DNA of 32,000 bases from Candidatus Thorarchaeota archaeon (lineage in GTDB: Archaea; Asgardarchaeota; Heimdallarchaeia; Hodarchaeales; Hodarchaeaceae), in contig JBHLRO010000026.1 of assembly GCA_048882505.1 (NCBI GenBank), positions 627 to 32,626 of the forward strand, written 5' to 3'. Position numbers and translations under genes: made by a program. Every line of letters begins with the position of its first letter. Position 1 is the stretch's first letter. Shown in pieces: positions 2,955 through 21,089 of this stretch. The notes under the pieces were generated by a model. That model saw only the letters and a program-made list of their open reading frames with translations. It was not told the DNA's origin and did no database searches.

Positions 2955-2995
2955 GGTTACATCATTCAAGAAATAAAGACATGCGCCGGCCGGGA

Positions 2996-3045
2996 TTTTT
3001 GGAAAACAGCCGTCAAAAACCTCAGAGGTTCAACATCTGCTTTCT
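2996..3045 (-). other. 50-nt non-canonical BHB tRNA intron at position 59/60 (T-loop)
   Basis: Outer helix is the T-stem; central helix UUCG/CAAA has one C.A mismatch; bulges AA^A and AA^U; inner helix GAAAGCAG/CUGUUUUC is capped by an AACCU/AGGUU hairpin. Confidence 0.88.
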
Positions 3046-3066
3046 TTCGAACCCGGGTTACCAGCT

Positions 3067-3086
3067 CACTCCAACCAATGAGGTTA
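3067..3086 (-). other. 20-nt canonical BHB tRNA intron at position 37/38
   Basis: Central helix CUCC/GGAG, bulges CA^U and UG^A, inner helix AACC/GGUU: a strict BHB. Confidence 0.93.
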
Positions 3087-3141
3087 TGGGAGGCTGGTAT
3101 CTTACCAGGCTGGATTACCGGCGCAAGAAACTATTCTTCAA

Positions 3142-3156
3142 TCATTAAAGATCATT
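3142..3156 (-). promoter_or_regulatory. Putative TATA/BRE for the tRNA-Gly gene
   Basis: Minus-strand AAATGATCTTTAATGA, with TTTAAT 20-25 nt upstream of tRNA position 1. Confidence 0.45.
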
Positions 3157-3341
3157 TTGGGTGCAAGAGATCATTACGGGGTGGATTCCCTGCGCATTAG
3201 ATCTATTTGCTTCCGCGTTATTTGTATTTTCTTTGTAATGCTGTTATTCTATCCTCCCCAAGGAAAAGAAACCGAGATTAGTGTTAATTGATCGTAAACA
3301 AAGATTTTTCGTTATACGATTTCAAAAACTGAATATGGAAT

Positions 3342-4121: not shown

Positions 4122-4245
4122 GTTAAGTTCAAAGAAGGTACCCTTTAGACAACCTCAGACCGCTCATCGTATATCATTACAGACTTTCTGCTCTTTCATT
4201 TGATTGTCATCACAGGCTGACCGAAAATCGCCATTATAATCCCGA

Positions 4246-4998: not shown

Positions 4999-5256
4999 TC
5001 TAAGGGAACTCCATAGATAATTTTTGAGAAAACGAGGATGGGAACGCTATAGTTGAATTTTCCTCCAAATTAAGGATGAAAACGCAGAGCATAAGAAGAT
5101 TATCAATCAATTAGGAAGTAAAGAAAGCCTAATAAGGAAAGCCTTGTATGGATACCCATCTTAGACTTATTCCCCCTGCATTCTTGAGAATCCCGAATTC
5201 AAAAGGTTCCTGGTGTCAACATCGCGACAGGGGTTGTTCACTTTGGTGGATCTAGA

Positions 5257-8200
5257 ATGAAGAAAAATCAATGTATTTCATTGTTCGCTCTCATGATTGT
5301 AGTGATTTTTGCAATTTCTACCCCGATTTTTCTCAATATGTATTCTACAGACCGCCTAGATCCAATTATCCCGTTTTTCCTTAGAAGATACGTGTCACCG
5401 TTACGAAAAGACCCTCCTCAAATACGCATCCCTGATGTTCAAACAGGAATCATCAGTTCTGGGGCTACTACTGGCCCTAATGCTCCTCGTCAACCTCGTC
5501 TTGAGATCGTGAATCAAAAACCAGTCTTTTTTCCAGGTGACAGCATTCGAGTCAGGAATCGCTTTAGTACAAATGAAGATCCCACATATGCTGTTCTCAA
5601 CTTGAATGTCTCTATTTATCTTCATAAACAGGGGTATTCCAGCCTAACAGATCCCAATCATTGGTTCAGGAATGAAACCACTAACTTTACCGCGCCTCTA
5701 CCGACAGTTCCTATTTCTAATGATCCATCCCAAGGGTGGATGGATGTCACTTTTCAGATTCCTAGTATTTCAGAACTTACAAACTATGGTATCGCATCAG
5801 GGGACAATGTAACGATTTATCAGTACTGTCAGCCTAACAATACAAAATTTTTGGAGGGACTTAGCCCCATCACGTTTGCAGACAACTTTACATTAAGTGC
5901 ATTCGCTTTGGTCGGAGCTAAAGGTACAGGTTTTGTAAATAATGCTACTAGCGATAGTACCTTTCGTCAAGGGGAAAATGCAACGGCTATTATTCGAGTT
6001 TTTGCAGGGTCGGACAATATTCCCAATGTATCTATCACTGCAACTCTTTATGATTCTTCCGACACACCTATTGCCAACAACACGAGTGGGATCACGTATT
6101 ATCTCACTAATTCTTCTGGAACTTCGCAAACATATACCGACGGGAATGGAGAGCTAAAACTTACTGTAAATACTTCCTACCCAACTGTACCTCAGGATAG
6201 TTATTATTTCAATATAACGGCAGATCTCTTTGGGACGGGGTATTTTTCACGATTTTATGATCCTGGTACTCCCAGTGTTAATATTGAATTTAATTCTGCC
6301 GATTTTAACTTCACGGTACAAAACGAAATGGACACCGTAGACCTCCAGCTGATTAGCGCCGTACCTCAACCCCTCGATCCCCCTAACCAAAATATCACAA
6401 TTGTAACATTCCGAGTTCGGGCCCTATATGTCTATGGTATTCCAGGCACCTATTATTATCCTGCAAACATGCCTGTCAACGTAACATTAAATTCCTACCC
6501 TGCAGGGGTTACCCTATCTATTGCAAAGGGTTTTACAGATAATGGATCGGCTGATTGGGCGCTTACCAATGGTTCGGGATATGTGGCGTTCAATATTACA
6601 GCTTCGTTTCCAACTCTATATTTGGATGATATTATCAAGAATATTACGGGGAGAGTTAATTTGCAGAACGATATTGCTCCTCAATATCCCTATCATACCG
6701 CTCTATCCCCACAACCGCATCGATTCATGAGAAATGCCACCAATGGAGTCAATGCTTCATGGACGGAGGCGATTTCAATTGATCCTGACTTTTGGGTAGG
6801 GAATATATACCTAGCATCTATTGATACTACAATTATCCGCCCTGGGGACTCTGCAAAACTGACGTTTGAAGTCAACTCGACCCAAGCACCAAGTGTTGAT
6901 TTTGCAGGTGTTCCTGTCAATGTTACTTTGAATGTACCCATTGCAGGGGTTTCATTAAGCTCCAGCAACTCCTTTGCGTATGGGGGGTATCGATTCACGA
7001 ATAATACGGGACATTATGAACTTCAGATCGCTACTACTTACCTAACCACGCCTGAGGTCGTTCAATCCATTGTCCTGGACATAATTGTGGATTTTGAAAA
7101 TGATTCAGAAGTCCGCTGGATTGGAACAGTAAATGGAGGAACTGCAACCTTAACTGAGTTTAACAACACATGGCGTACCGCACAATCATCAGCAGTGACC
7201 ATTCATCCTCAGTTCACGAATTTTTCAGTCAGTCTTGATACAACCAACGAAACGGGTGACACAACCATCCGTTCAGGTGATGGACTCACCCTCACATTTA
7301 AGGTTCAAGAAGAAGGGGGAGGTTCAGTTTTAGCTGACGTACCTGTCAATGTTTCTTTGGATAGTGCCTATCCAGGTGTATCTCTTACCAACATAGTAGG
7401 ATTACCTCATCCTAATTCTGGATATTATAATACCACAGGCGCGGGGACAATTACCGTAGAATTATCTACCACTTACCCGACAACACAGAAGAATCTTGAC
7501 ATCATCCTCAAAGTTTCCGCTGATTTCGAGAATGATTCCACCTCGAATTCGGTATGGTTTGTTGGTCAAAAACCCACAGGAGTAAACTTCAAGTCAAATT
7601 TCTCGTTTTCGGATCTAACCACCACGGTTCAGGTGAGGCCGCAATATTTCACTGGGGAGATCTTTGTTCCAGGGGGAACCAACCCTAATGCCACCCTTGT
7701 GCAGCAGGAAGAAACAGTTAGGATTGAATTTCGCCTACGTCTGGATTATTTGGGGACAAATTATGCTTCAAGTATTACGGGAGTAAATGTCTCGATCCTG
7801 ATTAACAATTCAAAACCATCGGATTGGAATATGCGTGTGTTAAATGTTACTTTGCTCGAGTCGCAATATCAAAATTCTCTTGCAAGTAGTGTGATTTTCT
7901 ATATCCAAACCAATGTTACTGGAATCACACCCGAAGCAGACTATAATATAACCGCTACGGCGGATTTTCTGGCCGCAAAGGGCCTCACCTATAATGTTAC
8001 TCAGTCAACCGTCCCTACAGGAAAACTTTTTGGGAGGTGGGTGAACGGTTCATTAAATAATGACAATTCATCCGTCACCCAATCGTTCAGGGTAGAAAAT
8101 ATCGATCGAATTACCGTTCATGTTCAGAGCCTTAACGATCCTTCTCATCCTGATGAAGGATTTAATGCGTCCTCTGGCTTCTATGAGGTCTATCGGGACA

Positions 8201-10362
8201 CAACGTCCATCACACTCAATGGAACGTACGAAGATGCGACTGGACAAGGACGCTCATCAACGCTTATTCTTGCCTATAATTACACGGGTGGATCAAACCC
8301 GTACGATCTTACATTGGTAATCTCCAATGCTCAAGGATTCTTTTCCACCACGATTGTCCTCAATAACACAGTCCCATTAGCAGACCTCACGATTTACGGA
8401 CGTGATACTGTTACACGGGTTCCCCAAGAGATTCGAATTGGACTGAGTTCCATTCGAGTAATGACAAACGTCACATTTAGTGGTCATTCTCGCAGTGGCA
8501 CGTTTAATGGGACAGCAGTATATGTTGGGGAAACAGTTAGCGTAACAGGTACCCTTCGTGATGAACAAGGAGCCGCCATCACTTCACCAGAACTTTCAAA
8601 TCGTCTACGCCTTATCGGTTGGAATGCTACCAATCAGGTTGAAATAGGTACTCCCGTTATAGGCAGCCCCGCTGTAGGGGCCTATAGCATGACCTACCAG
8701 GTGCCACTGAATTTTCTGGGAGACACCTTGTATATTCGTCTCAACTTGACAATGAGCGCGGCCCTTCTCCATTATCGAGCGAATTATTTCGAATTTCCTG
8801 TCCCAATCTATAGAAATTTCCAAGTTTCCGGCCTACAGATGTTCTTCCCATCAACTGGCGGTACTATGCCTGTTACAAATGACAGTGTGTACCTCATTAC
8901 AGGCATCCAGAACCGTACATTCTTTATTTCAGGAACCTTACAGGATACCGCCAGTCGGGCCCTTATAAATAAGGAAATCAACGATAGATTGGGAGCTGCG
9001 AGTCAGAGGCGAGCAGTGAGTTCTATCGGGTTCTTTAACATGCAGTACAACTTTGGAGGCTGGAATAACGCTACTTTTGGATGGACTCTCTATCACATTA
9101 GCGATGCGGGCACCAACCTCACCACTCATTACAATCTCACACTCCAATGGGAAATTTATGACACCGCGAGCCCATCTATCACCGTAACGAGTCCAACGGG
9201 ATTCGACAATACATCTACCATACCAAATGTTCCCAATACACGCATCAATACAACCATCTTCGATCCGGATCCTTCGACAGGGCCTGGTTTTGTTTCCCTT
9301 GGCCTAGATGTGGCTAGTCTCACAATCGAGATTAACACCACTATACCGATTACAGCCCCCATGGTTTCAATGGGAGGAGATATCTATGTTTACGACTGGG
9401 ATACTTCGGCAGTTGCGAATGTAGTTTATAATGTTACTATTGTAGCCTCCGATAACGCAGGGAATCAACGGCGGCTCATCACTTTGGTTGTAGTAGATCT
9501 AATCCAACCAACTGCATCAATGACTGTCCCCGTGAGTGGAGGATATGCAACCGTTAACTCACAGGGAAACGTTCCAGTTACCGGAACAATAACGGATAAT
9601 CCTTCAGTTGGGGGACGACAGAGCGGAATTAATGAAACCACTGTTACTCTGCGAATCCAAGCTGGCACGACTACCGTGACCCTAAATAATACAGAAATTG
9701 GGTTCATTCCAGCTTCTGGCAGTTACTCATATGATTGGGTAATCTTTTTCCCCAGTAATCAATCACGGAACCTTCTGTTCACTACCCCAGATGACTGGAC
9801 AATAATTCTTGATTTCGACGATCTTGCAGGAAATACTGGTTCTACCCAACAGTCCGTAATCCTAGATAATACAGACCCTGCAGTCTCGATTGAACTACCC
9901 CCACCGGATATCATCATAAATGAAACAGTGGAAATTGGTATTACCCTATTTGATGGGGAGACTGGTTTGGATATAACCACACTCCAGGTTAATCTTATCA
10001 ACACATTCACCTCACAGGTTACCCTTACGATTGTTGACCCTGAACTCGTTATCACAAACCTAGGGAATGGAAGGTACAATCTCACTTTTGATATTAGCTC
10101 TGTAGCAAACGATGTTTATACATTTAATGTCAGTATCCTTGACATGACAGGAAATTTGGCATCTGCAACTCATCAAAGCAGAATTGATATCCCCACACCT
10201 ACCACCCCCACCAGTACCACAACCCCTGTCCCACCTGGTGGCCCGCTTCTAGGCCCAGTGGATCTTATTCAGTTCATACTCTTCGATCTGGTTGCATTGG
10301 GAGCTGGGGTTGGCCTAGCCGTAGTCTACGAGCGATTAAAGGTTGTAAGACGGAGGGAATGA
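5257..10362 (+). CDS. Large membrane-anchored cell-surface glycoprotein with tandem Ig-like beta domains (S-layer/adhesin-like)
   Basis: 1701 aa. Hydrophobic N-terminal signal/anchor, Thr/Asn/Val-rich beta-strand composition, very many N-x-S/T sequons, internal PVNV(T/S)L repeats and D-x2-P repeats, a PT-rich linker, and a C-terminal TM helix followed by KVVRRRE. Confidence 0.85.
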   Translation: MKKNQCISLFALMIVVIFAISTPIFLNMYSTDRLDPIIPFFLRRYVSPLRKDPPQIRIPDVQTGIISSGATTGPNAPRQPRLEIVNQKPVFFPGDSIRVRNRFSTNEDPTYAVLNLNVSIYLHKQGYSSLTDPNHWFRNETTNFTAPLPTVPISNDPSQGWMDVTFQIPSISELTNYGIASGDNVTIYQYCQPNNTKFLEGLSPITFADNFTLSAFALVGAKGTGFVNNATSDSTFRQGENATAIIRVFAGSDNIPNVSITATLYDSSDTPIANNTSGITYYLTNSSGTSQTYTDGNGELKLTVNTSYPTVPQDSYYFNITADLFGTGYFSRFYDPGTPSVNIEFNSADFNFTVQNEMDTVDLQLISAVPQPLDPPNQNITIVTFRVRALYVYGIPGTYYYPANMPVNVTLNSYPAGVTLSIAKGFTDNGSADWALTNGSGYVAFNITASFPTLYLDDIIKNITGRVNLQNDIAPQYPYHTALSPQPHRFMRNATNGVNASWTEAISIDPDFWVGNIYLASIDTTIIRPGDSAKLTFEVNSTQAPSVDFAGVPVNVTLNVPIAGVSLSSSNSFAYGGYRFTNNTGHYELQIATTYLTTPEVVQSIVLDIIVDFENDSEVRWIGTVNGGTATLTEFNNTWRTAQSSAVTIHPQFTNFSVSLDTTNETGDTTIRSGDGLTLTFKVQEEGGGSVLADVPVNVSLDSAYPGVSLTNIVGLPHPNSGYYNTTGAGTITVELSTTYPTTQKNLDIILKVSADFENDSTSNSVWFVGQKPTGVNFKSNFSFSDLTTTVQVRPQYFTGEIFVPGGTNPNATLVQQEETVRIEFRLRLDYLGTNYASSITGVNVSILINNSKPSDWNMRVLNVTLLESQYQNSLASSVIFYIQTNVTGITPEADYNITATADFLAAKGLTYNVTQSTVPTGKLFGRWVNGSLNNDNSSVTQSFRVENIDRITVHVQSLNDPSHPDEGFNASSGFYEVYRDTTSITLNGTYEDATGQGRSSTLILAYNYTGGSNPYDLTLVISNAQGFFSTTIVLNNTVPLADLTIYGRDTVTRVPQEIRIGLSSIRVMTNVTFSGHSRSGTFNGTAVYVGETVSVTGTLRDEQGAAITSPELSNRLRLIGWNATNQVEIGTPVIGSPAVGAYSMTYQVPLNFLGDTLYIRLNLTMSAALLHYRANYFEFPVPIYRNFQVSGLQMFFPSTGGTMPVTNDSVYLITGIQNRTFFISGTLQDTASRALINKEINDRLGAASQRRAVSSIGFFNMQYNFGGWNNATFGWTLYHISDAGTNLTTHYNLTLQWEIYDTASPSITVTSPTGFDNTSTIPNVPNTRINTTIFDPDPSTGPGFVSLGLDVASLTIEINTTIPITAPMVSMGGDIYVYDWDTSAVANVVYNVTIVASDNAGNQRRLITLVVVDLIQPTASMTVPVSGGYATVNSQGNVPVTGTITDNPSVGGRQSGINETTVTLRIQAGTTTVTLNNTEIGFIPASGSYSYDWVIFFPSNQSRNLLFTTPDDWTIILDFDDLAGNTGSTQQSVILDNTDPAVSIELPPPDIIINETVEIGITLFDGETGLDITTLQVNLINTFTSQVTLTIVDPELVITNLGNGRYNLTFDISSVANDVYTFNVSILDMTGNLASATHQSRIDIPTPTTPTSTTTPVPPGGPLLGPVDLIQFILFDLVALGAGVGLAVVYERLKVVRRRE

Positions 10363-10495
10363 AATCTCCTGAATTGGAACCCTTGATAAAACAGAATGGA
10401 AAGAAAGATAAAAGAACAGAAAAATGGATAATGTATTAAAACAGAAATCCATAAGGTTTGACTGATAGATCGAAATTAAGGACCTGTGACAGATT

Positions 10496-11011: not shown

Positions 11012-11112
11012 AGAAGGAAAAATCCCGATTGATTACCAATAGCTTAGAACCGAACTACGTGAAATCTTCAACAAAGTATAGATATCTCGAATCTTGCTGA
11101 ACGGGCTTAGAT

Positions 11113-12876
11113 ATGGTAGAAATCAACCGTAGTACCAGCGCCTTGGTTGTTTTGGCCATTTTTATCAGCTATCCTTTTTTGGCAGCCGTCTTCTTGGGCT
11201 TTTTTTTCGCTGGGAACACTACGAACTTTAGTATATACAATACGGGTGCATTTGGTGCCAGTGAATTTATGCAACGATTTGCTGACCATTCAAATGAGGG
11301 TCAAATTTCCACAATAGTCGGGAGTTCAAATATTCTGAATAGATTAAATGCTTCCGAGATGAACGACAGCCAAGGCAGCCTCATCATTCTTGGACCCGCT
11401 ATTCATTATGATTTTTCAGAAGCACTTGCAATCCTCATTTACGCCATTAATGGGGGCAGAGTGTTGATTGCCGATGATTTCGGAACAGCTAATGACATTC
11501 TAGGTGTCCTTTCCATATTCCTTGGGTTTATGTCAGAAATCGATCTAGGTTCATCCCTGGGATTTGGTGGTTCTGAAGGTCTCAACTTATTGGGTATGAA
11601 TTCCTCCACTGGCGGAGGGGGATTAAGTGGGAGTGGAACGAACAGCACAACAGGCGAAACTGTCAATGCAAGTTTTAATTTCCCCATTGCAGGGGTTGCG
11701 ATCAATGGAAGTTTACTCGCTGACCAAGGTAGTTATAATGACACACCACTTACCCCCGTTTTTAGTTTCCCCTCTTCTGCTACCCAAACTGCTACTCAAT
11801 ACTTACTTCCCGCGCCTTGGGTGACGAGTTTTACAGCTGGGCTTAGTGGTAATGGCATTATTGGGAATTTTGCTAGTATTATTACCATGAAAGTTCGCTA
11901 TCCAGATATTAATTCCTCCGGATATCCATCGAATCCCGATTATCTAACCAAATGGGTACCCATGGGCGAATTTCCTGCTTCAGTCCAGCAGGCGTTTGAT
12001 AATCAACAATTAGACTCATTAGGTATCGAATTACCTGATATTTCATTTAGCCTGCAAATCGCAGTTTTATATAGCAGTTCTGAGGCCTGGTTGGAATCAG
12101 ATCTCGCTGCAGCGAGGCAAAATGTTAATAATATCAACCCAAATCTGAACGAATGGGGTAATCCCAATATTGGTTTCCCTGTTTTTGTCTATTTTCCTTT
12201 TCCACTAGGTGGGCAAATTATATTATGTTCTGATCCCTCTATTTTTATCAATCAGTATGTTGATACAGCAAATTATCCTGGAGCAAGTCTTTACGACAAT
12301 AGTGACTTCACAGACAATGTAGTGGACTTGATAATGCAGGATAGGCCGGGTCAAACCATCATTTTCGATGAAGGCCACCTGGCTAACGCGCCTTTTGCTC
12401 CTATTCTTCCCCTCAGTCTTTACCTGAAGTTCTTAGATATGATTACCATGTTTCCCCTGTTCGCATGGGCTCTCCCCTTTGTCGCGATCTTTCTATCTCG
12501 GCGTTTCATGCCCAAACGCGAACAAGCTAAACCTCTACTCCTAACACGGGTCGAACGGTACTATGGTCGTAGTTTTTTTGCGGTCAAAATGCGCTGGTTC
12601 CTTGAGTACCGTCAATTCTCGAGAGGTTTGGAACTTATATTCCGCCGCTTAAGACGGAACCTGATCCGTCGATATAATCCCGAAGAAGAACTCACTCCCG
12701 ATGTCATAGCGATTTATTTGGAAAACGAATTCGGTCCCGAGCGCTTTGACTATAAATCTACACGGCAAACTCTAATCACTATTGAAGAAGTGATTGCTAC
12801 TCGGGCCCCCATTACCGAAGAAGAATTTCTGAGTCATTATCTCTTTCTGAAAGGAATTGGCGCAGAAATTAGCTAG
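11113..12876 (+). CDS. DUF4350-like membrane-anchored protein
   Basis: N-terminal TM, then FSIYNTGAFGASEF, GGRVLIADDFGTAN, IILCSDPSIFINQ and IIFDEGH, then a second TM and a cytoplasmic tail. Confidence 0.8.
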   Translation: MVEINRSTSALVVLAIFISYPFLAAVFLGFFFAGNTTNFSIYNTGAFGASEFMQRFADHSNEGQISTIVGSSNILNRLNASEMNDSQGSLIILGPAIHYDFSEALAILIYAINGGRVLIADDFGTANDILGVLSIFLGFMSEIDLGSSLGFGGSEGLNLLGMNSSTGGGGLSGSGTNSTTGETVNASFNFPIAGVAINGSLLADQGSYNDTPLTPVFSFPSSATQTATQYLLPAPWVTSFTAGLSGNGIIGNFASIITMKVRYPDINSSGYPSNPDYLTKWVPMGEFPASVQQAFDNQQLDSLGIELPDISFSLQIAVLYSSSEAWLESDLAAARQNVNNINPNLNEWGNPNIGFPVFVYFPFPLGGQIILCSDPSIFINQYVDTANYPGASLYDNSDFTDNVVDLIMQDRPGQTIIFDEGHLANAPFAPILPLSLYLKFLDMITMFPLFAWALPFVAIFLSRRFMPKREQAKPLLLTRVERYYGRSFFAVKMRWFLEYRQFSRGLELIFRRLRRNLIRRYNPEEELTPDVIAIYLENEFGPERFDYKSTRQTLITIEEVIATRAPITEEEFLSHYLFLKGIGAEIS

Positions 12877-12914
12877 TAATAATGGCTCCAATTTATACTG
12901 CGAATTTAATCCTA

Positions 12915-13706
12915 TTAGTTTCTCTCCCAGATCAATTCTAAGGAGGGTTTTTCATATTTCTGGGTCGTCGCGTATTGTTTACCAAAGGAGGTTAGAGATA
13001 TTTCTTTTAACTTGCGCGTCCGTGTGGTTCGGATTAAATTTAGCGCTGCCATTCTCGATATTTCGCGCGACAAATTCATCATATGTTTCCCTGAGGTTTC
13101 CTGACCAAGTTTTGTATTTAGTCCCTTTAAAGAACCGATTTGTCCCGTTGGGAGCCGTGATAGCTCATAAATGACTCTCTCATCAATTTCTTTGAACACC
13201 ACATCCGTAATTGGGATGTCAAAGCTATATTGTTTGGCAAATTCAATGTCCTGCTCAAGTTTTTCCAGGACGGTTTGGGTGGAAGTTTGTGCTTGAAACC
13301 TCTCTCCTGGGAAGCTGAAATGAACAGAAGGGATCTTATATTTCAGGGCAAATAGGTACAGACCGACATTAGCGGGAATGGGGCCCGCCGAAATATCTAC
13401 TACAACCTCGTAATAGTGAAAGCGGGTCCTCAAATCAATAGTTTCTAGGGACTTAATCACAGAGATTGGATTTATTATATCTACTCTAACCTCCCAAATT
13501 CGATCCAATTGCTGAAAAAATCGACGATGACTATCAATGTAGTGAATCACGTCGTTAATTGCAATATTGATATTCTCGCGTACTTTAGGATTTATATCAT
13601 AAAAAGATCGCAATAATATGCAGTCTTTGGGTAAATATGAGAGAATTGAAGCTATTATTTTACTTTTATGCAGGCCCTGACATAATAGTAACAATTTATT
13701 GGTCAT
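12915..13706 (-). CDS. CARF-like Rossmann domain plus winged-HTH transcriptional regulator (Csa3/DUF6293-like)
   Basis: N-terminal LLLLCQGLHKSKI..LPKDCILL; strand-loop VVVDISAGP (compare CARF N/D-x-S/T-G-G); C-terminal wHTH LSREISRMAALNLIRTTRTRKLKEISLTSFG. Confidence 0.7.
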   Translation of the reverse strand: MTNKLLLLCQGLHKSKIIASILSYLPKDCILLRSFYDINPKVRENINIAINDVIHYIDSHRRFFQQLDRIWEVRVDIINPISVIKSLETIDLRTRFHYYEVVVDISAGPIPANVGLYLFALKYKIPSVHFSFPGERFQAQTSTQTVLEKLEQDIEFAKQYSFDIPITDVVFKEIDERVIYELSRLPTGQIGSLKGLNTKLGQETSGKHMMNLSREISRMAALNLIRTTRTRKLKEISLTSFGKQYATTQKYEKPSLELIWERN

Positions 13707-13761
13707 CCTTAACCCTACCAGGTAGCAATTTTATCAAGAAGTTCCTACAAACTCCAGCATA

Positions 13762-13792
13762 TATAACTTTTTGAACACACAATAAAGTTATA
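13762..13792. promoter_or_regulatory. Back-to-back BRE/TATA elements forming a 9-bp inverted repeat between the divergent regulator and ATPase genes
   Basis: TATAACTTT (13762-13770), 13-nt spacer, AAAGTTATA (13784-13792). Each arm reads as AAAGTTATA, a BRE-TATA-like element, on its own strand. Confidence 0.6.
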
Positions 13793-14006
13793 AAAGAAAT
13801 AAATAACTTAATATTGTGATTAAATTTGGAATCAAGAAACCAAGAGGAATCGTTACGAATCTTCTTAGTTTACCAATTTGCCTGGTGGGGGGAAATTCAT
13901 AGGGTTGTAACATTAAATTTGAAACAGGAGTAGGAACTTTCATGGATAGGATGATGAAGACAGTAAAAGTTTTGAAAATTATTGAAATATTAAGGAGGGA
14001 GGGTAT

Positions 14007-15323
14007 ATGATAATCGAGGGAAGAGAAAACCCGAATTCAGATCCAGGTAATATCTTATCCGCTTCCTTTCGGGCGCAAACATTTGTCCAAAATGGGCGTT
14101 ATTACGACCAAAAGGGGCAATACTCACAAGCGGTGAAGTATTATGGATTGGCCCAAACCAAATTCGCTAATCTATTGAAACAATTTCCAAAGGTACCTTT
14201 AACCCCCCAATGGGAGTTAGAAATTCGCCTGGCCCACCAACGTATCAACCAACTGAAATCTAAGGCGACACCCCAAAAACTCCGTTCAAAGGACGACCAA
14301 CAATATGCCGAGATGAAAGCTCGCGTTCTCTCCTGTCGAGTCAAACCCAACCCGAACCTGACACGACAGGATGTGATCGGCCTCCATCATATCTGGCGGG
14401 AGCTCGAAGACGTCGTTATTGATCCATTGATTTACCCCGAACTCCTCCACACCAATCCGGACTTCCCCCGGACAATTCTCCTCAACGGCCCCCCCGGCTG
14501 TGGGAAGAGCTTCCTGATGAATGTGTTGGCCGCGGTGGCCCCGATTACGCTCTTTCTGGTCACGCCAGGCCTGATCTACCAGAAATGGATGGGAGAAAGC
14601 CAAAAAATGGTGCAGGTGTTGTATGAAACAGCCTGGGAGTACGCCCCCTCTGTCATCTTCATCGATGAGTTTGACAAACTGTTTAATTCGTCAGTTACCC
14701 GTCTTAACGGCGGAACAGAGGCATCCCAGACAGGGATGCAGATCGAAAGCGAGCTCCAACAGTACTTGAGTGGGATGCGGACACCTCTCGTCAACCCTAC
14801 AGTTACAATAGCCGCCACCAACGAACCGTGGCAAATGGATGCCGCCATGCGACGACGCTTTGCTCGCATCCTCTATATCGGCCCTCCCGGCTCGTTTACG
14901 ATCGAACAGCTCATTGTCCGAAACTTTCGCCATACCCAACATGATCTAACCGAAAACCACGTCCAGTGGCTCGCGAATGAATTAGAGCGGCATTCACCCG
15001 CAGAGATTGCAAAAATTTGTTCGATCGCACATATGACGGCCCACAAACAAGCGCGAGACCAGGGATTTACTGAGGTGGTGAGTCTCAAGGATATGTTCGA
15101 TGCCATCCCCACTGTGGCGCCTGCTCTGGAGCTCTGGGCTGAACATAGTACAAGGTATAAATCGAAACTCACTAAATATCGGGAGTGGAACGACCAGTAT
15201 AGCATTCCTAAGATAGAACACCTGGGTTGGGAGTGGGAGCTGAAACCACGGGAGAAAACACGCAACCCAATTCAACTGAAAGTCTTTGACGAATCCCAAC
15301 CCGTAAAATGGAAGAAGGATTAA
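14007..15323 (+). CDS. MIT-domain AAA+ ATPase of the Vps4/CdvC/katanin (meiotic) clade
   Basis: MIT-like N-terminus (AQTFVQNGRYYDQKGQYSQAVKYYGLA...RINQLK), Walker A GPPGCGKS, pore loop KWMGES, Walker B VIFIDEFD, SRH AATNEPWQMDAAMRRRF; strong SD GGAGGGAGG. Confidence 0.85.
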   Translation: MIIEGRENPNSDPGNILSASFRAQTFVQNGRYYDQKGQYSQAVKYYGLAQTKFANLLKQFPKVPLTPQWELEIRLAHQRINQLKSKATPQKLRSKDDQQYAEMKARVLSCRVKPNPNLTRQDVIGLHHIWRELEDVVIDPLIYPELLHTNPDFPRTILLNGPPGCGKSFLMNVLAAVAPITLFLVTPGLIYQKWMGESQKMVQVLYETAWEYAPSVIFIDEFDKLFNSSVTRLNGGTEASQTGMQIESELQQYLSGMRTPLVNPTVTIAATNEPWQMDAAMRRRFARILYIGPPGSFTIEQLIVRNFRHTQHDLTENHVQWLANELERHSPAEIAKICSIAHMTAHKQARDQGFTEVVSLKDMFDAIPTVAPALELWAEHSTRYKSKLTKYREWNDQYSIPKIEHLGWEWELKPREKTRNPIQLKVFDESQPVKWKKD

Positions 15324-18300
15324 TGGAGCAGGAGGAGGCGCCTCAGGCCCAAGAAGAAGAGGAGCAGATTACCGAGGCTGTGGAGGAACAAGAAGAAAGC
15401 TGTGATCTAGACGGTCAAGACATCGAGGATCTCATTCAACAGATGGAAGCAGAACCCGAGGATCCCGACCCAGAAACAGAGGAAGACGTAGATCAAGAGG
15501 ATACTCTAGATGATGTAGGCGACCATTTTCAGCAGATCGTTGAGGATGATATTGCTAGTGACACGCTGTCCAAGGATGAGATTCTCGAGGATCTCCCCTT
15601 TGAATTTCCGCTCGCGTTTGATTATGAACCTGAGAATGAGACCATTGAATTCCTGGAAAGTGAAACATCCTCGATTCAAGAGGCCGAGCTGAATCGGGCC
15701 GAGGCCGTAGCGGAAGAGGAACATCTCGAAAAACTCCACCAATGGTTTGACCAACTTGTCCACCACGGCACTTCGGACTTAGAAGACCACGAAGATGTAT
15801 ATGAGCGAGATGAGGTGGGAGCGAGTACGTTGGAAGAAATCCAGGGTGTCATTGGGGAGGGGGAGATCCAGATCCAAGACTTAGCTGAACGGCTCCCTGA
15901 GGATATTTTCAGTTTCGAAATGGAGGAAGAACAGATAGATGCTCTCTTTCTGGAGGAACAGGACGTTAGTAGGTGGATTGAGGAAGAAACAACCCATGTA
16001 GCGGACCATCTTACCTTGGAAACACAAACTGAAGAACACCACCCTGAGCTTTCTGAGGAGGAGATAAAGTCAAAGCTGGAAGAGGTCGCTGAAGAGGTGA
16101 AAGATCAGTACGTCCAGGACCTCGATAGCTGGTGTGCGGATCTCCTGCACGAGACACCCGAAGAGAGTCGGGAGATTGAGGTTCAAGAACAGGAATGGAT
16201 AGAAACAACCCCTGATGAGGGAGAACTGGAAGTACTTACCCAAGAAGAGTTAGCTGTAAATGGGAGTGCGAACGAAGTAGAAATGGATAGTTTTACCCTC
16301 GTAGAAGAGGCAGAAGAGGATACACAATCAACAGTTACGACCCCTGAGGGGGGGACGAAGAATAATGAAATGGGAACGGTAGTTAAGGACATTGAGGAAG
16401 AAGAGTTAAGGGGGAATGTGACAGAGAAGGGAGTGGAGAATGCATCAATCACGGAAAATACACAATCCGAACAAGGACAGAATGTGAATATTGGGGAGGG
16501 GATACAAGCAGCTGAGAGTCATCCCATCCAGGAACTCGACAGCTGGTTGGATGAGGTTACCCATCTACTTTCTGACGGGAAAGCCTTGGACTTTCTAGAG
16601 CAGGATAGTTTCGTGAACATAGATGATCTGGTTCCACTTAGGGAAAATACAACTGATAAGGAGCTAGAAACTCTAGAATTAAAGAATCAACTACCTATGT
16701 CTATTCCTGAGGATATTCTTCCATTAGATGACCTACAAGTGGACTCAGAATTCCTCACTTCCACGCTTTTTCACACTGGATCTACAGGCCTGGATTCAGA
16801 GTATAACGAAGAGATCGCTCCATTCGCCCCATTATCCGAGATAGCTACAGAAATCCAGCAAAGGGAACAGTACCTTGATGTAATAATGGGGCCCCACTTC
16901 CTCGAAGAGGTACACACCCAGATCGAAGTACAAACACTTGAACAACTCGAGACCAAGGCCGACCAGGTTCTAAAAACCCAGGAAGAAGGCCTCCAACTCC
17001 AACGTCAGGTGCCGACTCTTCCTGAACCCCCTCCCTACGATTTTCAGGCCGAATTGGAGGCCTGGGAAGAAGAGGAAGCCCTTCAAGCCAAGTACACCGG
17101 CCCCCCTATCTATCGGTTCGCTAGCCATACTCAGGAAGGACGTTCAAAAAACTTAAAGGCCTCGTCCGACACTTCCCAAATACAGAAAACCCAGGAAAAA
17201 CAATCTAACAGAGAACCGAGGTCTAATTCTGGCAGGTCACTAGAGGAAGCTAAATACATTAAATTGACAGCATCTCGTGATTTGGCAACTCAATCCCTTT
17301 TTAATAAAGAGAAATCAATAGACAGCAAATATATGGTAGGATTGCCAAAAAGCGGAACTCAAGTGGAAAGAGGAAATGACCAGATGGGGACTTGTCAAAC
17401 TTTTGAAAGGGATTTTAAGTATATCAAAGAATATTTCGGATCTCTCAAATCTCCTTTAGAAGGCTTTAAGTATTGGATTAGGTTTGAACAAGATCTTAAA
17501 ATAGGTTCGATGAAGCAACCGTATTATTACAGTCTGTTAATCAAGCCCGATAAGAACATTCCCGATGTGGTTCATGAAAAACGGATCTATATCCAAAACC
17601 GGTCATCCTTTTTTAAAAACGGCTGGGATGCAAGAAATTTTTACCAGCATTCGACCCGAAATGAAGCAGTCTCTTCCTTCCAGAAGATTGTTATGGAAAG
17701 AATTGACAAATGGCTAAATATATCTCCGTGGACAGCTGTAAAAATCCGTCATTCGATATACGAACAATTTTACGAAAAAAAGCCCGCATTTTCGGAAATA
17801 AGGAAGAAAATTACAACAACAAAGAGTAAAAAGAAACCTTCTCTTTTTATCGCTAAGTTTAATTTAGAAAATTCCCAACCCTTATGGATAAAAGCATTTA
17901 ACGAATATATGAATAAGTTAAAAAATAAAGAGTCATTTCTGCAAGATTTAAAAATACGTTATCCTGACGTGTATCAATATTATACCTCAGAAGAGAACAC
18001 CCGCAATTTATCCCAAATTTTGGCCAATAAATCCCGATTCCTTGATTCTGAGGAAAAAAAACTGGCTAAACAAATCGTTTTAGATGTGAATACGAGAAAG
18101 GAGGATACAGCAAAGGCCAAGCGGTTTATTGAAGAAATAAACCATGCAATAGTAGAGGGTAACCTAAATGTCTCAGACCAAAAGATACTTGAAAATTTAA
18201 GTATGATAAGGAAACTAGAATCGTTTAAAGATATTGGATTTGTGTACAACGGAAATAACTGGGTTACAGTCTATAACTGGGAAGGGATGGATGATATCAA

Positions 18301-19810
18301 GTACTTCTTCAACGAAAGAATACAAGGAATTTGGGGATTGAAAATTTGGATTGACGTTTATATGGGAATCCCGATTTTTTCGAATAATAACAAACCTCTT
18401 TATTACACTGTGACGTTAAATGATCAAAGTGATATTCTTTTTCCGTTACGAGGAAAAACATTTCTATTAAGAAATGATCCAAGAGTTCTCAAAGAATATG
18501 GCGTTCGTAACTCATATTGGAGTGATAAGAACGGAACGGTCTTAAATTGGGAATATAGATTTTGTGAAGTTCTAGATTACGAAGTTCTAGGGCTAAACAA
18601 GGGAGATAAATCTGACCGAATGAACTTTACACGAATTAGAAATAGCATATTTAACCAGTTTAAACTAAAATACGGAGAAAATTACGGATACAAGACAAAA
18701 AATGCTCAAAGTCTCGCCCAGACAAAAATCCTTATTCTTAAATATGATAAAAATAACCTGCATTATTCTTGGATAAGGGCATTTTCTACTTCTAAATGGG
18801 ATATAACAACCTCTACATATAAGACTGTTGCTAATTGTCTTAGTAAGTTTGGATACGCAGATAGTCTAAAAGGGGAACCAATCGACTATATAATTACGAC
18901 AAGCGAGATTAAATACGATAATTTGATTGCTAAGATACGTAATAAAGAGATTGACGATCTTGGGGAAATGATTCATGCTCTAGAATATAATAAAAACTCA
19001 TCGACTAAATTTCACGATTTGTATTTTGGAACCAAAGATGTACAATTTCCTCTTATGGCCGATACCAGGGACTTTCAGAAATTTAAAGATGAATCAAATC
19101 CACAGGGCGAGTCGGCAATAATCAGTTCATTATTCCAACATAGGGAGTTGATAAGAGAGATAAACAAAAGATTTCCGTCAACGATCCCTTCATATGGCAT
19201 CTATGAATTTAAAGGCCAGTCTCGAGGTGAGAGTTCAACAACACCAGTCTATGAGGATATTTCAGCCAAAAAAAATAAAGCAGGGGATCCATTATCGTCA
19301 AATGTGAACATTCTAATTAAGAATTCAAATGAACATGTAAAAATCCGATTGTTAGAAGACTATTTAAAAGCCTTGCACGGAGTTGGAGACAAAAATATCT
19401 ATGTAAAAACAGTAATAACACATCCTGGGCATTTCAAGGATTTAAGCGAAATTCCAAGAGAAGTTAAGAAAGCAGTTGATAATTACCAGGAGGGAAGAAG
19501 ACTTGGATGGATTGATATAGGGATTGTACGTGGTAATAAGACCTATAATAACCTTGGATCTATATATGGAGCTGTGAAATGGGCCCGTACTGAAACAACT
19601 AATCATAAGGTGGCCGACACCAAATCGGGCATCGTACATGATTCAATAAGAAAACTTATGGAACATCGTATTGTGAAAAAGGAAAAAGAATTAGTTGAAA
19701 ATATGAACGACCTTTTTGAAAGACATAAATTTACTGGAAACTCCATTCGAGAAACCTCCTATGAAAAATTCAAGGATTTCATCATAGATTTCTTTGAAAC
19801 GTTTTTTTAA
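15323..19810 (+). CDS. ~1495-aa hypothetical protein: acidic disordered N-half, basic AT-rich C-half with a duplicated ~165-aa domain
   Basis: Uninterrupted ORF. The ATG at 15323 overlaps the ATPase stop (TAATG), suggesting translational coupling; the ORF track start at 15308 is an alternative. No family recognised. Confidence 0.8.
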   Translation: MEQEEAPQAQEEEEQITEAVEEQEESCDLDGQDIEDLIQQMEAEPEDPDPETEEDVDQEDTLDDVGDHFQQIVEDDIASDTLSKDEILEDLPFEFPLAFDYEPENETIEFLESETSSIQEAELNRAEAVAEEEHLEKLHQWFDQLVHHGTSDLEDHEDVYERDEVGASTLEEIQGVIGEGEIQIQDLAERLPEDIFSFEMEEEQIDALFLEEQDVSRWIEEETTHVADHLTLETQTEEHHPELSEEEIKSKLEEVAEEVKDQYVQDLDSWCADLLHETPEESREIEVQEQEWIETTPDEGELEVLTQEELAVNGSANEVEMDSFTLVEEAEEDTQSTVTTPEGGTKNNEMGTVVKDIEEEELRGNVTEKGVENASITENTQSEQGQNVNIGEGIQAAESHPIQELDSWLDEVTHLLSDGKALDFLEQDSFVNIDDLVPLRENTTDKELETLELKNQLPMSIPEDILPLDDLQVDSEFLTSTLFHTGSTGLDSEYNEEIAPFAPLSEIATEIQQREQYLDVIMGPHFLEEVHTQIEVQTLEQLETKADQVLKTQEEGLQLQRQVPTLPEPPPYDFQAELEAWEEEEALQAKYTGPPIYRFASHTQEGRSKNLKASSDTSQIQKTQEKQSNREPRSNSGRSLEEAKYIKLTASRDLATQSLFNKEKSIDSKYMVGLPKSGTQVERGNDQMGTCQTFERDFKYIKEYFGSLKSPLEGFKYWIRFEQDLKIGSMKQPYYYSLLIKPDKNIPDVVHEKRIYIQNRSSFFKNGWDARNFYQHSTRNEAVSSFQKIVMERIDKWLNISPWTAVKIRHSIYEQFYEKKPAFSEIRKKITTTKSKKKPSLFIAKFNLENSQPLWIKAFNEYMNKLKNKESFLQDLKIRYPDVYQYYTSEENTRNLSQILANKSRFLDSEEKKLAKQIVLDVNTRKEDTAKAKRFIEEINHAIVEGNLNVSDQKILENLSMIRKLESFKDIGFVYNGNNWVTVYNWEGMDDIKYFFNERIQGIWGLKIWIDVYMGIPIFSNNNKPLYYTVTLNDQSDILFPLRGKTFLLRNDPRVLKEYGVRNSYWSDKNGTVLNWEYRFCEVLDYEVLGLNKGDKSDRMNFTRIRNSIFNQFKLKYGENYGYKTKNAQSLAQTKILILKYDKNNLHYSWIRAFSTSKWDITTSTYKTVANCLSKFGYADSLKGEPIDYIITTSEIKYDNLIAKIRNKEIDDLGEMIHALEYNKNSSTKFHDLYFGTKDVQFPLMADTRDFQKFKDESNPQGESAIISSLFQHRELIREINKRFPSTIPSYGIYEFKGQSRGESSTTPVYEDISAKKNKAGDPLSSNVNILIKNSNEHVKIRLLEDYLKALHGVGDKNIYVKTVITHPGHFKDLSEIPREVKKAVDNYQEGRRLGWIDIGIVRGNKTYNNLGSIYGAVKWARTETTNHKVADTKSGIVHDSIRKLMEHRIVKKEKELVENMNDLFERHKFTGNSIRETSYEKFKDFIIDFFETFF

Positions 19811-20011
19811 CCTGATCGAGTAGATTTCTGTTGGTTCAATACACTTGATCTGAACAATAATCTTTATTTCAGGTTATAAATGTTTGAAACGCAATACATG
19901 CTATTTTATATAGGAACAACCCAGTGAATTTTAGATGAAGAACTTAATAATCCAACATTATGAATTAGATAAAAAAATAATCTGTCATGACTTAAACAGG
20001 TGTAGGATACT

Positions 20012-21089
20012 ATGAGTAAAACAGAAGGTAAAGATTTCACCGCAGACGATATTTCCTTCGATATGTTGTCCGAAGCTGACGTCGCAAGGGCCTATCAACA
20101 AATAATGGCTGAAATTCGGAAGGGATATATTGGACGCACCGAAATATTTGAGATGTTATGGATCGCCATGTTGACCGGTAAACACGTCTATTTAGAGGGT
20201 GTACCGGGTATTGGAAAACTTGGTTGTGGTTACAACTAAGTCTGAAAAAACATATATGGCGAAAATCTTCTCTCAATGTTTAGGAACACAATTTCAACGA
20301 ATTCAATTCACCCCCGACATGCTGCCCTCCGATATTGTTGGAACGAACATATTTAATCCCAAAACAGGAACGTTTCGTCTTAAAAAGGGTCCAATCTTTG
20401 CTAATGTCATATTGGCGGATGAAATTAATAGAGCTCCTCCTAAAACTCAATCAGCAATGTTGGAGGCCATGGCTGAAAGCCAAGTCTCTATAGAAGGCGA
20501 AACACATAAGCTGGAACAACCTTTTGTCGTTATGGCGACTGCAAATCCCGTAGAGCAAGAAGGAACGTATCCCCTGCCAGAAGCTCAGTTGGATAGGTTC
20601 ATGCTCAAAGTTATTATCCATCATTCATCGCCTGACGATGAACTTCGAATTATCAATTTCAAAAATGAGCCTGTCCCGGCCAAAATCAACCAAGTGGTGT
20701 CTCCTCAGACTATAGTTGCTATGATGGATGTTGTTAAACGTATTTATGTCTGTCCGGAAATTCTCGAAATGATTAGGGACATTACAGTTGCTACGCGCAC
20801 AGATCCAAGACTAATACTCGGTTGTTCTCCCCGTGGAAGCGAAAGTCTACTGCTAGCTGGTAAAGCAAGGGCAGCCATACATGGCCGGGATTATGTGATA
20901 CCAGACGATATTCTTCTAATGATACCTCATATAGTACATCATCGATTAATCATGAAGCCGGAAGCAGAACTCGAAGGTATCTCTCAGATAAGGGTGTCCG
21001 AGGATATACGCGATAGTCTCGTTGTGCCTGTCCATCTCGTAACCGAAGAAATGATCGTAGAAGAGTACATTGAAGAATATGTCGAATAG
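20012..21089 (+). CDS. moxR: MoxR-family AAA+ ATPase, predicted join(20012..20216,20248..21089), 348 aa
   Basis: Exon 1 ends HVYLEGVPGIGK; exon 2 continues TYMAKIF...RIQFTPDMLPSDIVG...LADEINRAPPKTQSAMLEAM...ATANPVEQEGTYPLPEAQLDRF. Removing 31 nt restores Walker A GVPGIGKT. Confidence 0.9.
20217..20247 (+). other. Candidate 31-nt bulge-helix-bulge intron in moxR mRNA
   Basis: 10-bp inner stem ACUUGGUUGU/ACAACUAAGU with a GGUU loop; 3-nt bulge AA^A (20215-17); 4-bp central helix UUGG/CUGA; second AA^A (20246-48). Contains an in-frame TAA at 20237-39. The outer helix is weak, so this is a relaxed motif. Confidence 0.75.

What the first reader, a model, noticed from the sequence alone, without database searches (positions are those of the whole stretch)
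2996..20247. Two relaxed, A-bulged BHB substrates in one window suggest a genome-wide BHB splicing layer
Seen in sequence: the T-loop tRNA intron (bulges AA^A and AA^U, mismatched central helix) and the moxR insert (AA^A and AA^A, weak outer helix) share A-rich bulges and relaxed geometry. Inference: the host endonuclease tolerates relaxed motifs, which would let small introns colonise protein genes. Other apparently frameshifted pseudogenes in this genome may be spliced genes, hitting conserved motifs as this one does.
Basis: inference. Interest (0 to 1): 0.72.

Follow-up and report, generated by a model that had tools for sequence, protein, structure and literature searches.

The report
BHB introns in tRNA-Gly and moxR
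In this Asgard archaeon a glycine tRNA gene carries two small enzyme-cut introns, and a MoxR ATPase gene carries a conserved 31-base intron of the same type inside its ATP-binding motif; a genome-wide search found no other protein gene treated this way.

Summary
Both observations hold. On the minus strand at 2982-3124 lies tRNA-Gly(CCC) with a strict 37/38 intron (3067-3086) and a 50-nt T-loop 59/60 intron (2996-3045; bulges AA^A and AA^U, one C.A mismatch). Removing both gives a 73-nt cloverleaf. [quoted passage not shown]

The moxR insert is a conserved element. An independent metagenome contig spans it. Two diverged alleles (JGI, 31 nt; NCBI/Logan, 30 nt) carry a homologous insert at the same site. 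All 14 core pairs are kept, with compensatory changes. The flanking exons are under strong purifying selection (dN/dS 0.04; synonymous sites near saturation). The cut rule rebuilds GIGKT in all three alleles.

The genome has an (alpha-beta)2-type EndA and RtcB. No RNA data exist.

The generalisation fails. Comparison with 2.8 Mb of a relative, a paralogue scan and BHB-plus-ORF scans found no second frame-restoring BHB insert in a protein gene. The other apparent breaks are gene boundaries or plain frameshifts.

The scan had already noted the moxR intron on this same window.

The parts
2982..3124 (-). tRNA-Gly(CCC) gene with two introns (143 nt; no encoded CCA)
   Evidence: The spliced 73-nt product is called tRNA-Gly(ccc) by ARAGORN. 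Orthologues are present in G016, G010, G019 and G017.
3067..3086 (-). Canonical 37/38 intron, 20 nt, strict hBHBh' motif (central helix CUCC/GGAG, bulges CA^U and UG^A)
   Evidence: The intron-less G010 and G017 orthologues read CUCCCAA in the anticodon loop, exactly the predicted splice product.
2996..3045 (-). T-loop 59/60 intron, 50 nt (central helix UUCG/CAAA with a C.A mismatch, bulges AA^A and AA^U, outer helix = T stem)
   Evidence: G016, G010, G019 and G017 have an intron at the same position with divergent sequence.
20012..20216 (+). moxR exon 1 (M1 to the first base of the Walker A Lys codon)
   Evidence: bpMoxR N-terminal match. Collinear with 22 orthologues.
20217..20247 (+). 31-nt BHB intron in the moxR coding sequence (inner helix 20218-20227/20232-20241; central helix 20211-20214/20242-20245; bulges 20215-20217 and 20246-20248)
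   Evidence: Excision restores GIGKT. Homologous inserts occur in L264 and L267/L268, with all core pairs kept. The insert is present in an independent metagenome contig.
20248..21089 (+). moxR exon 2 (AAA_3 from profile position 11, plus AAA_lid_2), including the stop codon
   Evidence: dN/dS is 0.03-0.04 against G016 and L264.
21217..22695 (+). Intact DUF58/vWA partner gene downstream of moxR (context)
   Evidence: The same gene order is seen in L267 and L269.

Best explanation
The window, from a Hodarchaeales-type Asgard genome, holds two real substrates of the archaeal tRNA-splicing endonuclease.

(1) Pre-tRNA-Gly(CCC) carries a strict anticodon-loop intron and a T-loop 59/60 intron.

(2) The moxR pre-mRNA carries a 31-nt intron that splits the Walker A lysine codon. 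It folds into a BHB motif whose outer, exon-exon helix is nearly absent (HBh'-like).

Inferred mechanism: the (alpha-beta)2 EndA cuts after the second base of each 3-nt bulge, and RtcB joins the exons. This gives a 73-nt tRNA and an in-frame moxR mRNA encoding GVPGIGKT.

Shown here:
- the motif geometry;
- exact frame restoration in three alleles;
- conservation of the structure;
- purifying selection on the interrupted gene;
- presence of the enzymes.

Not shown: the RNA cleavage and ligation themselves.

The moxR intron is a singleton. In this genome BHB splicing is widespread in tRNA genes but is not a general layer over protein genes.
For: tRNA:
- The spliced product is a canonical tRNA-Gly(CCC).
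- The T-loop intron position is shared by five species with divergent intron sequence, and G016's differences keep the pairs.

moxR, the insert is real DNA: an X2 contig from another study spans 19219-20371 with no gaps.

moxR, homologous inserts at the same codon: L264 (31 nt, 26/31 identical) and L267/L268 (30 nt, with an in-frame TGA).

moxR, structure:
- All 14 core pairs are paired in all three alleles. Five pairs vary, two with changes on both sides.
- 98% of cells are paired, against 28-45% when the partners are slid.
- The intron is far more conserved than synonymous sites: 5/31 differences against pS 0.60, P = 7e-7.
- The peptides the insert would encode differ (KLGCGYN, IFSCSHN, KFS), so it is not coding.

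moxR, selection between intron-bearing alleles: pS 0.60-0.82, dN 0.046-0.092, P(neutral) 5e-34 to 3e-68.

moxR, population variants: all six listed variants at 20372-20609 are synonymous (one search read).

Enzymes:
- The alpha subunit is closest to the A. pernix, S. tokodaii and P. aerophilum alpha subunits, with Y/H/K present.
- The beta paralogue lacks the catalytic His.
- RtcB is present.

Singleton status.
Against: - No RNA run holds this locus, so excision is inferred only.
- The outer helix is essentially missing, and no Asgard EndA has been assayed on such a substrate.
- Only three intron-bearing alleles exist, so the shuffle control for covariation is uninformative (223/500).
- G016, the sister of G000 (95/95 support), lacks the intron. 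The distribution therefore needs at least two events, and how the intron arose or moved is unknown.
- The genome-wide negative is limited: only 2.8 of 4.9 Mb of one relative was compared, and introns shared by both genomes in genes with short flanking ORFs, or with weak motifs, would escape.
Confidence: 0.8

Rival explanations
1. A relaxed-specificity endonuclease has let small BHB introns colonise many protein genes, so apparent frameshifted pseudogenes across this genome are really spliced genes.
For: - The (alpha-beta)2 EndA is present.
- tRNA genes are heavily interrupted: 10 of the 27 Rfam-detectable tRNAs carry inserts, and others, like this one, are missed altogether.
- One protein gene does carry such an intron.
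- No standard 5S rRNA gene is detectable. Earlier scan notes attribute this to a BHB intron and a permutation; that was not tested here.
Against: - tblastn of 5,664 ORFs from 2.8 Mb of G009 against G000 gave 2,612 with hits and 12 candidate breaks. Only moxR is a long gene with a BHB-compatible insert.
- The reverse search gave 13 breaks and no BHB.
- The self-paralogue scan gave 24 loci: +/-1 shifts, HdrA/MvhD and ABC-ATPase gene boundaries, and repeats.
- BHB-plus-ORF-fusion candidates shared by both genomes all turned out to be stop/ribosome-binding-site/ATG gene boundaries.
- The 307 in-frame insertions show no BHB enrichment over a displaced control. None reaches the moxR score, and one apparent hit was 5' UTR.
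Confidence: 0.07
2. The moxR insert is a frame-breaking insertion in a recently dead gene (a pseudogene). Its BHB-like fold is a coincidence of a palindromic insert.
For: - The unspliced frame stops after 75 aa.
- The closest genome, G016, and 21 other orthologues lack the insert.
- There is no RNA evidence.
- Decayed alleles exist elsewhere: L269 lacks 28 nt spanning Walker A.
Against: - Three diverged alleles keep the insert while their exons evolve at dN/dS about 0.04, with synonymous sites near saturation.
- The G000 branch shows no excess of amino-acid changes relative to G016.
- The insert itself is conserved, with pair-preserving and compensatory changes.
- The downstream DUF58 partner gene is intact.
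Confidence: 0.04
3. The 30-31 nt are skipped during translation (ribosomal bypassing as in phage T4 gene 60, or another recoding event), not removed from the RNA.
For: - In G000 an AAA codon precedes the insert and an AAA lies 31 nt downstream.
- A stable hairpin sits in the gap.
- Selection data alone cannot distinguish RNA removal from translational removal.
Against: - In L264 the codon after GGA is AUA and no matching landing codon follows, yet the BHB cut rule still rebuilds GGA-AAG-ACG.
- No stop codon follows the putative take-off codon in G000.
- The conserved features are the 4-bp helix and the two 3-nt bulges, that is, the endonuclease motif.
- The genome uses that motif dozens of times in tRNAs, with similar intron lengths of 21-31 nt.
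Confidence: 0.04
4. The insert is an assembly or sequencing artefact of this metagenome-assembled genome.
For: The genome is a metagenome assembly of 83 contigs.
Against: - The source-run contig has depth 35, and a contig from a different study covers the site without gaps.
- JGI, NCBI and Logan assemblies of related organisms carry homologous inserts.
Confidence: 0.01

Closest known systems
cbf5 pre-mRNA intron of Crenarchaeota (Watanabe et al. 2002; Yokobori et al. 2009, PMC2738675)
   Same: - A short BHB intron (16-44 bp there, 30-31 nt here) lies inside a coding sequence.
- It interrupts the codon of a catalytic residue.
- The cleavage motif is often relaxed.
- The host has a heterotetrameric EndA.
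- The distribution is patchy, with secondary precise losses.
- Some alleles do not change the frame but still must be removed (L267 here).
   Different: - A different gene (a MoxR AAA+ ATPase, not a pseudouridine synthase).
- A different phylum (Asgard/Heimdall group, mesophilic sediment).
- cbf5 splicing was shown by RT-PCR and in vitro cleavage. Here excision is inferred from comparative data only.
Multi-intron and non-canonical-intron tRNA genes of Asgard archaea and Thermoproteales (Valentin-Alvarado et al. 2024, PMC11291895; Goswami et al. 2026, bioRxiv 10.64898/2026.10.13.758758)
   Same: - Several introns per tRNA, at non-canonical positions such as the T-loop.
- BHB motifs at the boundaries.
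- Two EndA paralogues.
- Standard annotators miss the genes.
- Introns at one position differ in sequence between relatives.
   Different: Nothing essential; the tRNA-Gly gene is a further example. [quoted passage not shown]
BHB intron in the 5' UTR of the Haloferax volcanii HVO_1309 mRNA (Schwarz et al. 2020, PMC7714728)
   Same: An mRNA, not a tRNA or rRNA, is a substrate of the splicing endonuclease.
   Different: It lies in the untranslated leader and not in the coding sequence. The host has a homodimeric EndA and the motif is strict.
Translational bypassing in phage T4 gene 60
   Same: A short, hairpin-containing gap in a coding sequence is absent from the protein.
   Different: It needs matched take-off and landing codons and a stop after take-off. 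These are not conserved here, and the conserved features here are those of the endonuclease motif.

Membership tests
Archaeal BHB (EndA-dependent) intron: moxR insert | [quoted passage not shown] | tested here: met
   UUGG/CUGA (G000), UCGG/CUGA (L264) and UUGG/CCAA (L267), with bulges AAA/AAA, AAU/AAA and AAA/AAA. The topology is the same as in the tRNA's own canonical intron.
Archaeal BHB (EndA-dependent) intron: moxR insert | Cutting after the second bulge base and joining the ends yields the functional product | tested here: met
   This rebuilds GIGK-TYMA in frame in G000 (31 nt), L264 (31 nt) and L267 (30 nt). The A-to-U change in L264 limits the possible cut sites to two, one of them the predicted site.
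Archaeal BHB (EndA-dependent) intron: moxR insert | Flanking helices h (exon-exon) and h' (intron) of the strict hBHBh' form | tested here: not met
   The inner helix has 9-10 bp. The outer helix is a mismatch followed by 1-2 bp. The motif is therefore the relaxed HBh' form, which is still within the family as defined for (alpha-beta)2 hosts (PMC5829648, PMC2738675).
Archaeal BHB (EndA-dependent) intron: moxR insert | The intron is excised from RNA in vivo or by purified EndA | not testable with these tools
   No RNA run is listed for this locus.
Non-canonical tRNA intron (T-loop 59/60) | Removal gives a canonical cloverleaf with a 7-nt T-loop, and a BHB motif sits at the boundaries | tested here: met
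   The product is a 73-nt tRNA-Gly(CCC) with T-loop UUCGAAU. The motif has 3-4-3 geometry with one C.A mismatch. The same position is occupied in four relatives.
(alpha-beta)2 heterotetrameric EndA | Two paralogues: a catalytic alpha with the Tyr/His/Lys triad and the specificity-loop region, and a structural beta without the catalytic His | tested here: met
   - The 182-aa protein aligns end to end with A. pernix alpha (3p1z_B, E 1e-41), with Y, H, K and the loop region present.
- The 213-aa protein aligns best to the beta part of the M. kandleri enzyme (5x89) and has no His at the catalytic position.
- The assembly state was not tested.
Pseudogene | Relaxed constraint (dN/dS near 1) after the disrupting event | tested here: not met
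   dN/dS is 0.038 between the intron-bearing alleles G000 and L264. Neutrality is rejected at 5e-34 to 3e-68 for the three pairs.
Programmed translational bypass (gene 60 type) | Matching take-off and landing codons flanking the gap, with a stop codon after take-off | tested here: not met
   G000 has AAA...AAA but no stop after take-off. L264 has AUA after GGA and no matching landing codon.

The most novel reading that the evidence does not exclude
Endonuclease-type introns in this Asgard lineage are not confined to stable RNAs. They can enter, persist in, move between and be precisely lost from protein-coding genes. The moxR Walker A intron would then be a regulated on/off switch: unspliced mRNA gives a 75-aa dead end and spliced mRNA gives the ATPase. 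On this reading a spliceosome-independent mRNA splicing route operates in the closest prokaryotic relatives of eukaryotes. Further cases would exist in other Hodarchaeales genomes even though this genome has only one.
Probability: 0.2. Interest if true: 0.85.

Novelty: new member of a known kind. Interest (0 to 1): 0.6.

Why it matters
In the literature searched here, cbf5 of Crenarchaeota is the only coding sequence reported to carry a BHB intron, and HVO_1309 carries one in its leader (PMC7714728, PMC2738675). A second protein gene, in an Asgard archaeon, carries such an intron under clear selection. This shows that endonuclease-dependent mRNA splicing is not a crenarchaeal oddity.

It also gives a concrete, testable substrate for Asgard EndA: 64 nt with known cut sites. 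[quoted passage not shown]

For annotation: such genes are called as two ORFs or pseudogenes, and tRNAs with T-loop introns are missed by ARAGORN and Rfam.

The negative result matters too. Heavy intron load in tRNAs plus a permissive enzyme has not produced a general splicing layer over protein genes.

Tried and rejected
- ARAGORN (with and without -i) and Rfam gathering on the window found no tRNA. The gene had to be spliced by hand.
- No RNA holder is listed for the locus. Only DNA contigs could be laid.
- A BLAST search for other copies of the 31-nt insert in the genome gave only chance words of 15 nt or less.
- The first genome-wide BHB-plus-ORF-fusion scan gave thousands of hits, because ordinary same-strand gene boundaries pass the filter. 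It was replaced by homology-anchored scans.
- Apparent inserts of 34 and 38 nt (C2:71.6 kb, C18:2.2 kb) were flagged through short ORFs; the C2 one proved on DNA alignment to be an antisense ORF over a variable intergenic spacer, and neither has a frame-consistent BHB.
- The HdrA/MvhD 'splits' on C7 and the ABC-ATPase hits on C25 are separate adjacent genes.
- An in-frame 33-nt insert with a stop in G009 lies upstream of the ATG.
- A degenerate pattern scan of JGI metagenome contigs for any 16-46-nt insert at this codon returned only the L264 contig.
- My automatic choice of tRNA intron boundaries by crude BHB score was unreliable. It picked a 22-nt variant with a wrong anticodon for this tRNA. 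No exact intron census is claimed.
- The shuffle control for covariation is uninformative with three sequences.
Full report
**Origin and context.** The window is contig C26:627-32626 of a 4.3-Mb, 83-contig assembly. Close relatives of its moxR gene are titled Heimdallarchaeota or Hodarchaeota MAGs, so this is an Asgard archaeon of the Heimdall/Hodarchaeales group.

**The tRNA: gene and introns.** ARAGORN and Rfam (gathering threshold) report no tRNA in the window. Read on the minus strand, 2982-3124 has:
- a 7-bp acceptor stem;
- a D arm with U8, A14, G18, G19;
- an anticodon stem CCAGC/GCUGG;
- a T stem CCGGG/CCCGG.

Two inserts interrupt it.
- The first, 3067-3086 (20 nt, position 37/38), forms a strict motif: anticodon stem, central helix CUCC/GGAG, bulges CA^U and UG^A, inner helix AACC/GGUU.
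- The second, 2996-3045 (50 nt, position 59/60), uses the T stem as outer helix and UUCG/CAAA as central helix (one C.A mismatch), with bulges AA^A and AA^U and an 8-bp inner helix.

Cutting after the second base of each bulge and joining gives a 73-nt sequence that ARAGORN calls tRNA-Gly(CCC), with T-loop UUCGAAU.

**The tRNA in relatives.**
- G016 has both introns at 94% identity, and its differences keep the pairs (C-G to U.G, A-U to G.U). One difference changes a bulge base without touching the mature sequence.
- G010, G019 and G017 carry a T-loop intron at the same position, with unrelated sequence and a perfect UUCA/UGAA central helix.
- G010 and G017 lack the anticodon intron and read CUCCCAA there, exactly the predicted product.

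The T-loop intron is therefore an old, ordinary BHB intron that is only mildly 'relaxed'.

**The moxR insert in this genome.** ORF1 (20012-20239) ends 75 aa in, after GVPGIGK plus seven unrelated residues. ORF2 (20199-21089) holds AAA_3 from profile position 11 and AAA_lid_2. Removing 20217-20247 gives GVPGIGKTYMAK and a 349-aa MoxR.

The local structure is:
- central helix 20211-20214 with 20242-20245 (UUGG/CUGA; two G.U pairs);
- bulges 20215-20217 and 20246-20248 (AAA, AAA);
- inner helix 20218-20227 with 20232-20241 (10 bp, GGUU loop);
- an outer helix that is a mismatch followed by U-A and G-C.

The bulges lie 3' of the central helix on both strands, the same handedness as in the tRNA's canonical intron. 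The rule 'cut after the second bulge base' removes exactly 31 nt.

All 22 orthologues from the genus and order are collinear and lack the 31 nt, including G016 at 96-97% amino-acid identity. The genome holds no other copy of the insert. Only 2.3% of comparable genomic hairpins have a fully paired central helix in phase.

**Is the insert real DNA, and is the gene alive?** A contig from a different study (run X2) spans 19219-20371 with three base differences and no gap. No laid contig lacks the insert. The six listed population variants at 20372-20609 are all synonymous (one search read).

The decisive data came from the protein collection. The 75-aa ORF1 product clusters with another 75-aa protein whose tail differs, and with a 74-aa one. 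Their contigs show homologous inserts at the same codon:
- L264 (JGI): 31 nt, 26/31 identical.
- L267 (NCBI MAG) and L268 (Logan): 30 nt, with an in-frame TGA.

The BHB rule restores GIGK-TYMA in all three alleles.

Structure across the three alleles:
- All 14 pairs of the central and inner helices are formed.
- Five pairs vary. Two show changes on both sides: C-G, U.G and U-A at 20219:20240; U.G, C-G and U-A at 20212:20244.
- 98% of cells are paired, against 28-45% when the 3' partners are slid.
- With three sequences the shuffle control carries no weight.

Selection between intron-bearing alleles:
- The exons differ at 60-82% of synonymous sites but at only 4-9% of non-synonymous sites.
- dN/dS for G000 against L264 is 0.038.
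- Neutrality is rejected at 5e-34 to 3e-68.
- The intron itself is much more conserved than synonymous sites (P = 7e-7).

The peptides the insert would encode are not conserved. The G000 branch shows no excess of amino-acid change over G016, and the DUF58/vWA partner gene is intact.

An interrupted gene that stays under strong selection for this long, with a conserved RNA structure at the break, must have the insert removed. A pseudogene and an assembly artefact are excluded.

Translational bypassing is unlikely. L264 has AUA after GGA and no matching landing codon, yet still fits the cut rule.

**Distribution of the moxR intron.** On the moxR tree, L264 is sister to (G000, G016) with 100/100 support, and G000+G016 has 95/95. 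L267 lies outside, among intron-less genes. At least two events are needed: for example precise loss in G016, as proposed for cbf5 (PMC2738675), or transfer. How the intron arrived is open.

**The enzymes.** The genome has two PF01974 genes.
- The 182-aa product aligns over its whole length with the catalytic alpha subunits of crenarchaeal heterotetramers (3p1z_B, 3ajv_B, 2cv8, 2zyz_B). The Tyr, His and Lys of the active site and the loop region tied to broad specificity are present.
- The 213-aa product aligns best with the structural half of the Methanopyrus enzyme (5x89) and lacks the catalytic His.

This is the (alpha-beta)2 architecture. With epsilon2, it is the type reported to cleave non-canonical motifs (PMC5829648), and it is reported as common in Asgard genomes (bioRxiv 10.64898/2026.10.13.758758). 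RtcB is present.

**Test 1 of the 'genome-wide layer': comparison with G009.** I fetched 2.8 of the 4.9 Mb of the single-contig relative G009 and ran tblastn both ways.
- Of 5,664 G009 ORFs, 2,612 hit G000. Twelve adjacent-HSP breaks were flagged, moxR among them as a positive control (insert estimate 31).
- The others were short ORFs, antisense on inspection where checked, with variable spacers or shifts of a few bases, or in-frame 200-nt differences between paralogues.
- The reverse search gave 13 breaks in G009, none with a convincing BHB.

**Test 2: self-comparison for paralogues.** This flagged 24 loci: +/-1 shifts, separate HdrA and MvhD genes, adjacent ABC ATPases, and repeat proteins.

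**Test 3: introns shared by both genomes.** I scanned both genomes for BHB motifs whose excision fuses two ORFs of at least 50 codons, and matched the junction peptides.
- There were 106,224 candidate cut pairs in G000 and 46,592 in G009. They gave 291 matches.
- Every inspected case with a motif in both genomes is a stop/ribosome-binding-site/ATG gene boundary.

**Test 4: in-frame insertions.** There are 168 in-frame insertions of 4-45 aa in G000 and 139 in G009. They show no BHB enrichment over a control displaced by 150 nt, and none reaches the moxR score. One tempting case lies upstream of the start codon.

**Verdict on the layer.** Within these limits, moxR is the only protein gene with such an intron.

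tRNA genes are a different matter. Only 27 reach the Rfam threshold, ten of these carry inserts of about 20-90 nt, and others, like tRNA-Gly(CCC), are missed entirely. Several tRNA introns are 28-31 nt hairpins like the moxR one.

**Comparison with the known.** The nearest precedent is the cbf5 intron of Crenarchaeota. It is 16-44 bp, interrupts the catalytic-residue codon, often has a relaxed motif, occurs in hosts with a heterotetrameric EndA, and is patchy with secondary losses (PMC2738675). As of 2020 it was described as the only additional BHB intron in an mRNA besides the HVO_1309 leader (PMC7714728). My searches of the held library found no report of one in moxR or in an Asgard protein gene. 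The tRNA gene is a further example of the published Asgard pattern.

**Overall verdict.** Earlier notes of this scan on the same window had already proposed the moxR intron. The comparative evidence here is independent of them.

Noticed in passing
L269:690-760 (JGI Ga0451568_278096): A related moxR allele lacks 28 nt of exon sequence spanning GIGKTYMAK (it reads GVP then ASLGV, stop). The deletion covers the intron site. It could be ordinary decay or an imprecise intron loss.
   Followed up: partly
L265:2840-2998 (ENA k141_1077027): Another related contig has the moxR 5' part running into unrelated sequence 12 nt before the intron site. The contig ends about 150 nt later. It could be a larger insertion, a rearrangement or a chimera.
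   Followed up: no
G000:C30:19043-19143 (L271): No 5S rRNA match reaches the Rfam cut-off anywhere in the genome (best 20.3 bits). Earlier scan notes describe a permuted, intron-bearing 5S gene. I did not check that structure.
   Followed up: partly
L260 (G019:C53, about 7490-7620): The tRNA-Gly(CCC) orthologue of G019 appears to have extra sequence in its 5' (acceptor/D-arm) part, in addition to anticodon-loop and T-loop introns of different sequence.
   Followed up: no
window 5257-10362 and 15308-19810: Two very large ORFs (1,701 and 1,500 aa). The second, the only one scanned, has no Pfam match. The region 14-20 kb has a strong A-over-T skew and falls to 34% GC.
   Followed up: no
window 12875/20025: One low-depth contig of run X4 joins 12875 to 20025, skipping 7,149 nt that include the AAA gene and the 1,500-aa ORF. 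Only 22 nt lie on the shorter side, so this may be spurious or a strain lacking that block.
   Followed up: no
G000:C71 and C77 versus G009 near 335 kb, 2.46 Mb and 2.71 Mb: Small contigs with 62-95% identical junction peptides in G009 and reciprocal +/-1 frame breaks. They look like shared mobile-element genes, possibly with programmed frameshifts.
   Followed up: no
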